A DNA stretch of 24,225 bases from Candidatus Woesearchaeota archaeon (GTDB lineage Archaea > Nanobdellota > Nanobdellia > Woesearchaeales > UBA525), in NCBI GenBank assembly GCA_023252315.1, contig JAJPEB010000001.1, positions 1 through 24,225 of the forward strand. The letters are read 5' to 3'. Position 1 is the stretch's first letter. The number at the start of each line of letters is the position of its first letter. A model generated the notes under the pieces. It saw only the letters and a list, made by a program, of their open reading frames with translations. It had not been told where the DNA came from and made no database searches. Shown here piece by piece: positions 1,468-1,598 of this stretch. Made by a program: the position numbers and the translations under genes.

Positions 1468-1500
1468 GAAAAAGCAGGAAAAAAGAAGAAAGGTTGAAAA
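1468..1500 (-). terminator. Oligo-T tract terminator downstream of the micro-ORF
   Basis: Minus strand reads TTTTCAACCTTTCTTCTTTTTTCCTGCTTTTTC, starting a few nt after the TAA at 1506. Confidence 0.45.
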
Positions 1501-1505
1501 CGATC

Positions 1506-1544
1506 TTACTTCTTCTTCTTCGCTGCAGTCTTCTTCTTTGCCAT
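1506..1544 (-). CDS. 12-aa Lys-rich micro-protein MAKKKTAAKKKK (not in the ORF track)
   Basis: ATG GCA AAG AAG AAG ACT GCA GCG AAG AAG AAG AAG TAA, with GGAGG at 1554-1558, TTTAAATA at 1591-1598 and a downstream T tract. Confidence 0.7.
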   Translation of the reverse strand: MAKKKTAAKKKK

Positions 1545-1553
1545 GTTAACCCC

Positions 1554-1598
1554 CCTCCAAATGTTGATGGATGTATCTGATGTCTTATCCTATTTAAA
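1554..1598 (-). promoter_or_regulatory. TATA box plus Shine-Dalgarno of the micro-ORF
   Basis: Minus strand: TTTTAAATAGG ... TTGGAGGGGGGTTAAC-ATG, an AT-rich island in a GC-rich background. Confidence 0.65.

What the first reader, a model, noticed from the sequence alone, without database searches (positions are those of the whole stretch)
1468..1598. Uncalled 12-residue Lys-rich micro-protein with a complete dedicated expression unit
Seen: on the minus strand, TATA (TTTAAATA, 1591-1598), a short leader, a strong SD (GGAGGGGGG), ATG1544, MAKKKTAAKKKK, TAA (1506-1508) and an oligo-T terminator. Seven of 12 residues are Lys, all encoded by AAG. It is below any ORF-caller threshold, yet has a stronger SD than most genes here. 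Inference: a highly expressed polycationic peptide resembling histone H1/protamine-type Lys-Ala repeats, possibly binding nucleic acid, ribosome or polyphosphate. No function is established.
Basis: partly seen in the sequence, partly recalled or inferred. Interest (0 to 1): 0.66.

Follow-up and report, generated by a model that had tools for sequence, protein, structure and literature searches.

The report
Conserved oligolysine micro-gene in Woesearchaeota
A 12-codon gene for an almost pure lysine peptide, with its own archaeal promoter, ribosome-binding site and terminator, is real and conserved in related DPANN archaea; it is the short version of an unannotated family of lysine-repeat mini-proteins that most likely coat nucleic acids by charge.

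Summary
On the minus strand lie TTTAAATA (1598-1591), GGAGGGGGG (1558-1550), ATG 1544, MAKKKTAAKKKK, TAA (1508-1506) and T-runs.

It is not a chance ORF. Five other genus-level genomes (Candidatus Woesearchaeota) carry the same unit at the same place, between DUF58 and a convergent Zn-ribbon gene pair. In those loci the TATA box is 100% identical and the ORF 83%, against 31-42% for the flanks. All indels are whole codons and the Ala wobble positions vary.

Two sister genomes have a 94-aa and a 112-aa polybasic repeat gene at the same site, behind the same promoter layout. So the micro-ORF is the short ortholog of a length-variable gene.

Order-wide, 43 of 90 sampled hits are free-standing polybasic ORFs of 10-116 aa. 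Most have a GAGGT-type SD.

No known family accepts them: Hc2/H1-like models score far below cut-off.

The best reading is a gene-encoded polycation that binds DNA or RNA, like an H1 tail or a polyamine. This function is untested.

"All Lys are AAG" is ordinary codon bias (94% AAG genome-wide). Polyphosphate binding found no support.

The scan has flagged look-alike micro-genes before, in several bacterial phyla. This is an archaeal case.

The parts
1591..1606 (-). Archaeal promoter: TATA box TTTAAATA (1598-1591) preceded by an A-rich BRE-like stretch (ttttcataaa)
   Evidence: TTTAAATA occurs 58x against 1.3 expected and sits upstream of long ORFs. The box is 100% identical in six genus loci, and the 12 nt before it are 56% identical against 31% further upstream.
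1545..1568 (-). Predicted 24-nt 5' leader. The TSS is inferred at about A1568, 22-23 nt after the TATA box, which is the spacing seen at leaderless genes of this genome
   Evidence: Inference (about 20 of 58 TTTAAATA boxes have a long ORF starting 18-24 nt downstream). No transcript data.
1550..1558 (-). Shine-Dalgarno GGAGGGGGG (GGAGG core, 9-nt spacer to ATG)
   Evidence: GGAGG is conserved 7-9 nt before the ATG in all six genus loci. GAGGT(GA) sits before most polybasic ORFs of the order.
1506..1544 (-). Micro-gene: ATG GCA (AAG)3 ACT GCA GCG (AAG)4 TAA = MAKKKTAAKKKK. The mature peptide is probably AKKKTAAKKKK after Met removal (inferred from Ala at position 2)
   Evidence: Orthologs: MAKKKAAKKKKQ (G002, G007), MAAKKKAAKKKKQ (G003, L047), MAAKKKAAAKKKR (G008). 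ORF identity is 83% against 31-42% in flanks. Indels are whole codons, with GCA/GCG/GCT and AAG/AAA wobble changes.
1469..1500 (-). Oligo-T terminator region (T4 1500-1497, T6 1484-1479, T5 1473-1469)
   Evidence: A T-rich tract follows the stop in all six loci. In the lowest-energy fold it pairs with the AAG run in 5/5 species, but z-scores are +0.57 to -1.95, not significant.
1645..1782 (.). Context: copy of a dispersed short repeat between the DUF58 stop and the micro-gene promoter
   Evidence: BLAST of 1709-1783 hits G000:C43, G000:C30 and G008. Earlier scan notes e1-5333568 and e1-5333569.
1855..2709 (-). Context and synteny anchor: DUF58/VWA gene directly upstream on the same strand
   Evidence: Pfam PF01882, E 3.5e-42. 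The same gene precedes the polybasic ORF in G002, G003, G007, G008, L047, L048 and L049.
661..1305 (+). Context: two convergent Zn-ribbon genes (661-999, 1000-1305). No co-directional gene lies downstream of the micro-ORF
   Evidence: Homologs are convergent in G002 and G007.

Best explanation
This is a real, independently transcribed and translated gene. A consensus archaeal TATA/BRE promoter drives a roughly 90-100 nt mRNA with a 24-nt leader, a GGAGG ribosome-binding site, 12 codons and an oligo-T terminator. The product is (M)AKKKTAAKKKK, net charge about +7. It is the short ortholog of a length-variable Lys/Ala(Thr,Val) repeat gene that is common in Woesearchaeota (10-116 aa). The peptide most likely acts by charge alone: a gene-encoded polycation that binds and neutralises DNA and/or RNA, like an H1 or histone tail or a polyamine, in a tiny cell that has a tail-less histone and no detectable polyamine synthesis. 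Shown: the signals, the conservation, coding-type constraint, orthology with long forms, and the order-wide family. Inferred: transcription, translation, Met removal, abundance and nucleic-acid binding. I put about 0.85-0.9 on 'real functional micro-gene' and about 0.5 on the nucleic-acid polycation mechanism.
For: The unit is present as described. TTTAAATA is 45-fold over-represented and promoter-associated. Six genus-level species keep TATA (100% identical), SD and ORF (83%), while flanks are 31-42% identical. All length differences are whole codons, and Ala and Lys wobble positions vary. The synteny DUF58 -> ORF <- Zn-ribbon pair is conserved. On the DUF58 tree the eight carriers are unresolved with respect to each other, and none falls inside the well-supported sister clade that lacks the gene at that position. 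L048 (94 aa) and L049 (112 aa) have polybasic repeat genes at the same site, with the same promoter layout: ttttcataa-TTTAAATA, 45-46 nt to the ATG, GGAGG, ATG GCN. Order-wide, the start pattern hits 128/401 genomes against about 5 matches for the reversed control. Of 90 genomes sampled (the tool's 30 fetched loci plus the first listed match of 60 further genomes), 43 hits are dedicated polybasic ORFs of 10-116 aa, mostly with a GAGGT-type SD and a TTTAAATA-like box. The long forms give weak compositional hits to Hc2 (PF07382) and to the Burkholderia H1-like model NF038053 only. The genome has one tail-less histone. All 30 order histones sampled are tail-less. No spermidine synthase or pyruvoyl ArgDC was found. 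A preprint reports a Loki tailed histone whose mature N-terminus is AKKKTPAKK with the Met removed. Oligolysines of this charge bind DNA and RNA in vitro (my own knowledge of the oligolysine-nucleic acid binding literature; not checked here).
Against: There are no expression, proteomic or binding data. Twelve residues is very short for a stable specific role. Homology tools cannot define the family: phmmer and hmmscan give nothing significant, so 'family' rests on composition, signals and, within the genus, synteny. The absence of polyamine genes comes from an 87.6% complete MAG. No fusion of the Lys repeat to a histone fold was seen. Gene neighbourhoods across the order vary and give no functional hint. 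The sister clade (DUF58 identity <=66%) lacks the gene at this position.
Confidence: 0.5

Rival explanations
1. Ribosome-associated micro-protein: the peptide fills an rRNA pocket like eL41 (archaea, eukaryotes), bS22, bL37 or Thx, which annotation also missed because of their small size.
For: It is tiny, very basic, and has strong translation signals. Coureux et al. (PMC7005279) note that eL41 is not identified in all archaeal genomes, possibly because of its size, and that bS22 occupies the same site in actinobacteria. No eL41 match was found in this genome. CPR bacteria add Ala/Lys-rich tails to uS19 (PMC9297842).
Against: Length varies freely (10-116 aa) and switches between 12-13 and 94-112 aa at one orthologous locus, which does not fit a fixed rRNA pocket. 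There is no Arg or Trp and no helix pattern like eL41, which is 37 aa in archaea. The eL41 model is not discriminating: its controls rang below cut-off. Only some neighbours are translation genes, such as aIF2-alpha and aaRS in 3 of 13 loci.
Confidence: 0.15
2. The act of translation or the RNA matters, not the peptide: a Lys-codon leader or stalling sensor, or a purine-rich small RNA whose AAG run pairs with the U/C-rich tail.
For: Seven Lys codons out of 12 resemble amino-acid-sensing leader peptides. A 12-mer is released while still inside the exit tunnel. The AAG run pairs with the downstream CUUCUU/U tract in the lowest-energy fold in 5 of 5 species.
Against: There is no co-directional downstream gene to regulate: the next gene is convergent and T-run terminators follow at once. 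Fold z-scores are unremarkable (+0.57 to -1.95). Lys codons switch between AAA and AAG and Ala codons vary across the order, while ATG, SD, frame and stop are kept. Long orthologs of 94-112 aa are ordinary proteins. Rfam gives no match.
Confidence: 0.1
3. Membrane-active or host-directed cationic peptide of an episymbiotic DPANN cell (cell-penetrating or antimicrobial-like).
For: Oligolysines are membrane-interacting polycations. DPANN archaea depend on hosts. Some order-level variants end in Cys clusters or a C-terminal CxxC, reminiscent of polybasic-plus-Cys membrane anchors.
Against: There is no signal peptide, no hydrophobic face and no linked transporter. Neighbours are housekeeping genes. 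Long pure (A/V)KKK forms look like nucleic-acid binders, not amphipathic peptides.
Confidence: 0.08
4. Non-functional remnant: a collapsed repeat gene (or a chance ORF) drifting without selection.
For: Low-complexity repeats expand and contract easily. Long and short alleles alternate at one locus. The sister clade lacks the gene at this position.
Against: Six species whose DUF58 proteins differ by 25-31% keep promoter, SD, start, frame and TAA stop, while the surrounding DNA is at 31-42% identity. The short forms are nearly identical to each other, which indicates one persisting short allele. Ten- to 16-codon forms recur with perfect SDs in many families.
Confidence: 0.07

Closest known systems
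Bacterial histone H1-like Lys/Ala-rich nucleoid proteins (Chlamydia Hc2/HctB, Pfam PF07382; Burkholderia H1-like, NCBIfam NF038053; Pseudomonas AlgP)
   Same: Low-complexity Lys/Ala(Pro,Thr,Val) repeats, extreme positive charge and no folded domain. The long Woesearchaeota forms give their only database hits to these models (E 0.04-0.07).
   Different: Scores are far below cut-off (14 bits against 40; 13 against 80). The host is an archaeon with a TATA promoter. The window's product is 12 aa rather than 100-200 aa, and length runs continuously from 10 to 116 aa. AlgP is linked to polyphosphate granules (PMC9239181, title seen), but no PPK was found here.
Lys-rich N-terminal tails of eukaryotic and Asgard histones (for example HLoB of Lokiarchaea, mature N-terminus AKKKTPAKK; bioRxiv 10.64898/2026.07.02.735847)
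   Same: The sequence start is almost the same, (M)AKKKT.A.KK, and the initiator Met is probably removed. Woesearchaeota have histones (PMC6136690).
   Different: Here the 'tail' is a separate gene. All 30 order histones examined are tail-less 68-73 aa proteins, apart from two likely over-extended start calls, and none carries a Lys repeat. No physical link to histones has been shown.
Tiny basic ribosomal proteins eL41 (37 aa in archaea), bS22, bL37, Thx
   Same: Very small, very basic, and missed by annotation because of size (PMC7005279).
   Different: eL41 is Arg-rich with a defined helix and fixed length. This ORF has no Arg, is 12 aa, and its orthologs range up to 112 aa. There is no PF05162 match.
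Poly-Lys micro-genes flagged earlier by this scan in bacteria (NC10, Rokubacteria, Chloroflexota, Nitrospira; notes e1-4975552, e1-933922, e1-1122133, e1-3522361, e1-4380062, e1-5128941, e1-5315240)
   Same: 10-23 codon Lys/Ala ORFs with very strong SDs, their own terminators and conservation in relatives, all unannotated.
   Different: Those are bacterial, with sigma-70-type promoters and other neighbours. This is an archaeal case with a TATA/BRE promoter and demonstrated orthology to long repeat proteins. I did not re-test the earlier notes, and common descent is neither shown nor likely.

Membership tests
Histone H1-like Lys/Ala repeat nucleoid proteins (Hc2 PF07382 / NF038053) | Profile score at or above the curated cut-off | tested here: not met
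   Long relatives L034 and L046 score 14.3 and 13.9 bits against cut-off 40 (PF07382). L034 scores 13.4 against 80 (NF038053). L048, L049 and L014 give no hit. The 12-mer is too short to score.
Histone H1-like Lys/Ala repeat nucleoid proteins (Hc2 PF07382 / NF038053) | Lys/Ala-rich low-complexity repeat composition without a folded domain | tested here: met
   MAKKKTAAKKKK is 58% Lys and 25% Ala. Orthologs and order-wide forms are (A/T/V)KKK repeats.
Histone H1-like Lys/Ala repeat nucleoid proteins (Hc2 PF07382 / NF038053) | Binds and condenses DNA | not testable with these tools
   Needs EMSA or compaction assays with the synthetic peptide.
Ribosomal protein eL41 (PF05162) | Profile match; 25-37 aa Arg/Lys helix of fixed length | tested here: not met
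   No match in the genome at E<=1 (the model has low power). The ORF is 12 aa with no Arg, and orthologs are 12-112 aa. eL41 features are taken from PMC7005279.
Ribosomal protein eL41 (PF05162) | Stoichiometric component of the small-subunit h27/h44/h45 pocket | not testable with these tools
   Needs a ribosome structure or MS.
Amino-acid-sensing leader peptide / attenuator | Co-directional regulated gene downstream in the same transcript | tested here: not met
   The next gene is convergent (1000-1305, + strand) and T-runs follow the stop. The arrangement is the same in G002 and G007.
Amino-acid-sensing leader peptide / attenuator | Alternative terminator/antiterminator RNA structures | tested here: inconclusive
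   AAG-run:U/C-tract pairing recurs in 5/5 folds, but z-scores are +0.57 to -1.95.
Archaeal TATA/BRE-driven transcription unit with SD-led translation | Consensus TATA box at promoter distance, SD 5-10 nt before the start, oligo-T terminator | tested here: met
   TTTAAATA lies 46 nt before the ATG. The same box is 45-fold enriched and gene-proximal genome-wide. GGAGG lies 9 nt before the ATG, and T6 and T5 runs follow the stop. All are conserved. Transcription itself is not shown.
Histone N-terminal tail (eukaryotic/Asgard type) | Covalently joined to a histone fold | tested here: not met
   The ORF stands alone. The genome's histone and 30/30 order histones lack Lys tails.

The most novel reading that the evidence does not exclude
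Woesearchaeota, and by the scan's earlier notes several bacterial phyla, make free oligolysine peptides from dedicated high-output micro-genes as tunable, gene-encoded bulk polycations. In effect these would be histone tails or polyamines supplied in trans, whose dose is set by repeat number and promoter strength. They would replace missing polyamine synthesis and help package DNA and RNA in ultra-small cells with tail-less histones.
Probability: 0.2. Interest if true: 0.85.

Novelty: new variant of a known kind. Interest (0 to 1): 0.62.

Why it matters
Gene finders discard ORFs this small, and composition filters in homology tools erase them. As a result a conserved and probably abundant class of cell components is invisible in DPANN genomes.

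If the peptides are made, they would be the smallest known dedicated polycation genes in Archaea. They would also be an H1-tail-like factor in a domain where the 2018 review of archaeal histones states that H1-type linker histones have not been found (PMC6136690).

They also offer a simple, testable idea for how ultra-small, polyamine-poor cells neutralise nucleic-acid charge. Because short (12-13 aa) and long (94-112 aa) alleles occupy one orthologous locus, nature has already provided a dosage and length series to study.

Tried and rejected
- tRNA/tmRNA and Rfam scans of the window: nothing.
- Paralogs in the own genome: none. Only one other candidate micro-ORF, with a Cys tail, on C103.
- G006 hit L007: only a KKKK C-terminus of a longer protein, not a homolog.
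- G014 hit L009: a two-domain protein with a Lys tail and no Pfam family above cut-off.
- Exact look-up of a flanking window protein in public assemblies: not on record.
- Exact look-up of seven 25-112 aa forms in the 15-billion-protein collection: none present. Start-call differences or genome coverage could explain this. The tool refuses proteins under 20 aa.
- phmmer-type search with the 112-aa ortholog: 8000 word-sharing candidates, none significant after composition correction. PDB: none.
- Selected RNA structure: not supported.
- Read-through of TAA into a longer protein: rejected. The downstream frame is not conserved, G002 has a second stop two codons later, and the region overlaps the convergent gene.
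- Fusion of the Lys repeat to histones: not seen.
- Conserved neighbourhood across the order: not seen.
- Polyphosphate link: no PPK1 or PPK2.
- Seven literature searches found no description of such archaeal micro-genes. That covers open-access text only.

Full report
**Observation.**
- TTTAAATA at 1598-1591
- GGAGGGGGG at 1558-1550
- ATG at 1544-1542
- twelve codons, MAKKKTAAKKKK
- TAA at 1508-1506
- T-runs at 1500-1497, 1484-1479 and 1473-1469

An in-frame TAG overlaps the TATA box, and no alternative start lies between it and the ATG. The unit sits in a 550-bp gap between two convergent Zn-ribbon genes (661-999 and 1000-1305, + strand) and a DUF58/VWA gene (1855-2709, - strand). tRNA and Rfam scans are empty.

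**Is it more than chance?**
- The genome is 1.18 Mb in 151 contigs, 67% GC and 87.6% complete.
- TTTAAATA occurs 58 times against 1.3 expected from composition. It mostly lies 18-50 nt upstream of long ORFs.
- About a third of those ORFs start 18-24 nt after the box, so they are leaderless genes. This motif is therefore the organism's promoter box, and the TSS lies about 22 nt after it.
- That places the micro-gene's TSS near A1568, giving a 24-nt leader that carries the SD (inference).
- Only three short ORFs in the genome reach 40% Lys, and only this one has both a TATA box and an SD.
In contrast GCA, ACT and TAA are rare codons here.

**Conservation.**
A BLAST of the intergenic region against 40 relatives hit, at exactly the ORF, several same-genus genomes. 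Inspection shows the same unit in each:

| Genome | Locus | Peptide |
|---|---|---|
| G002 | L003 | MAKKKAAKKKKQ |
| G007 | L004 | MAKKKAAKKKKQ |
| G003 | L006 | MAAKKKAAKKKKQ |
| DUGD01000042 | L047 | MAAKKKAAKKKKQ |
| G008 | L016 = L050 | MAAKKKAAAKKKR |

- Each has TTTAAATA about 45-50 nt upstream, GGAGG 7-9 nt before ATG GCA, a TAA stop and a T-rich tail.
- In a six-species alignment the TATA box is 100% identical and the ORF 83%. Far-upstream DNA is 31%, the TATA-SD spacer 42% and the downstream region 38-39%.
- All length differences are whole codons. GCA/GCG/GCT and AAG/AAA differences are synonymous. This is the signature of a translated frame.
- Record titles of the relatives name Candidatus Woesearchaeota.

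**Synteny and orthology with long forms.**
- In G002, G007, G003, G008 and L047 the ORF follows DUF58. In G002 and G007 it faces the same Zn-ribbon pair.
- Two further sister genomes have no micro-ORF after DUF58. They instead have a 94-aa (L048, MAARRKATRKKARRK...) and a 112-aa (L049, MAPAKKTRKVAKK...) polybasic repeat gene.
- Their upstream regions have the same architecture as the window. L048 reads ttttcataaCATTTAAATAggg, then 46 nt to the ATG, with GGAGG 7 nt before ATG GCA GCA. The window reads ttttcataaaTTTTAAATAgga, also 46 nt to the ATG.
- The 12-codon gene is therefore the short ortholog of a length-variable repeat gene.
- On a DUF58 tree the eight carriers are unresolved with respect to each other. 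None falls inside the well-supported sister clade (98/99), which lacks the gene at that position.
- The six short forms are nearly identical to one another. This argues for one persisting short allele rather than repeated collapse.

**Order-wide family.**
- The pattern ATG-GCN(1-4)-(AAR)3-N3-9-(AAR)3 matches 128 of 401 genomes of the order. The reversed control gives about five matches.
- I sampled 90 genomes: the tool's 30 fetched loci plus the first listed match of 60 further genomes. Of these, 43 hits are dedicated polybasic ORFs: 19 of <=20 aa, 16 of 21-50 aa and 8 of 53-116 aa.
- Most sit behind a GAGGT(GA) SD, and many behind a TTTAAATA-like box. The other 47 hits are N-termini of ordinary proteins such as eS31.
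- Gene neighbourhoods differ between families (topoisomerase I, aaRS, aIF2-alpha, SOD, transketolase, Nre and others). These are free-standing genes without a fixed partner.

**Comparison with known families.**
- The long forms get no Pfam, NCBIfam or PDB assignment. The only hits are compositional and far below cut-off: Hc2 PF07382 at 14 bits against 40, and NF038053 at 13 against 80.
- A large-database search returns nothing after composition correction. Exact sequences of seven forms are absent from a 15-billion-protein collection.
- eL41 (PF05162) is not matched. Its defined 37-aa archaeal form (PMC7005279) does not fit a product that varies from 10 to 116 aa.
- The leader-peptide idea fails for lack of a downstream co-directional gene.
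- The AAG run pairs with the pyrimidine tail in every lowest-energy fold, but z-scores of +0.57 to -1.95 give no evidence of a selected structure.

**Mechanism.**
- The genome encodes one canonical tail-less histone. All 30 order histones examined lack Lys tails.
- In this 87.6%-complete genome I found no Alba, spermidine synthase, pyruvoyl arginine decarboxylase, PPK1 or PPK2.
- A 2018 review states that Woesearchaeota have histones and that H1-type linker histones have not been found in Archaea (PMC6136690).
- A 2026 preprint reports a Loki tailed histone whose mature N-terminus is AKKKTPAKK with the Met removed. That is almost the window's peptide.
- Putting these together, I favour a gene-encoded polycation that binds DNA and/or RNA electrostatically, like an H1 tail or a polyamine. 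Its dose would be set by promoter strength and repeat number.
- Only the gene's reality is well supported (about 0.85-0.9). The binding mechanism is inference (about 0.5).
- The rivals are ranked in the report sections: ribosomal micro-protein, translational or RNA role, membrane-active peptide, and neutral remnant.

**Novelty.**
- Seven full-text searches found no description of such archaeal micro-genes.
- The scan itself has flagged similar poly-Lys micro-genes in bacteria before. I did not re-test those notes.
- This case adds an archaeal example with a TATA promoter, and evidence that micro and long forms are orthologous alleles.
- I class it as a new variant of a known kind: Lys/Ala-rich, H1-like polycations.

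Noticed in passing
window 1855-3879 (-): The 674-aa 'MoxR-DUF58' ORF is probably not one gene. Relatives have separate MoxR and DUF58 genes, and G002 also has a small hydrophobic ORF between them. In the window DUF58 starts at ATG 2709, and a 125-aa hydrophobic ORF (2706-3083, another frame) lies upstream. The MoxR frame simply stays open through a 73% GC stretch that encodes Arg/Gly/Ala-rich sequence.
   Followed up: partly
window about 1645-1782 (BLAST-matched part 1709-1783): A copy of a dispersed short repeat lies between the DUF58 stop and the micro-gene promoter. It matches G000:C43:15251-15325, G000:C30:257-326 and two places in G008. This agrees with earlier scan notes of a MITE-like family.
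   Followed up: partly
L025, L026, L037, L041, L171, L180, L028, L022, L137, L139, L151, L163, L164, L176: A sub-class of polybasic micro-ORFs ends in Cys clusters (…GCCCC, …CRCC, …RCCCC, …KCCCCSC, …SSCCSCCR) or a C-terminal CxxC (VCEFC three times, CPFC twice, ICTYC, CRWC, CSMC). In L025 and L026 such an ORF directly follows a plain oligolysine ORF (MAKKKAAKKKK in L025). This could reflect metal-bridged dimers or lipid anchoring. Unexplained.
   Followed up: no
G000:C103:12571-12645 (+): A second candidate micro-gene in the same genome: METKDMKKKGKKSGESAGGCGCGC, with AGGTG 5 nt before the ATG and a pyrimidine-rich tail. It is a Cys-tailed relative of the class above.
   Followed up: no
L009 (G014:C19), minus strand 1471-1818: A 116-aa protein with two copies of a roughly 35-aa unit (VLVKCGV+R..GWLYF.DKKG.VAR) followed by a (T/A/V)KKK repeat tail like the free ORFs. 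No Pfam family is above cut-off. It is possibly an undescribed nucleic-acid-binding domain.
   Followed up: partly
G003:C34 start and G003:C10 end (L006/L015, L012): Two contigs of this relative both break at the micro-ORF. This suggests the low-complexity AAG repeat, or a second copy, interrupts assembly.
   Followed up: no
G000 genome-wide: About 20 of the 58 TTTAAATA boxes have a long ORF starting 18-24 nt downstream. A large share of genes in this archaeon therefore appear leaderless, while others use GGAGG/GAGGTG leaders.
   Followed up: partly
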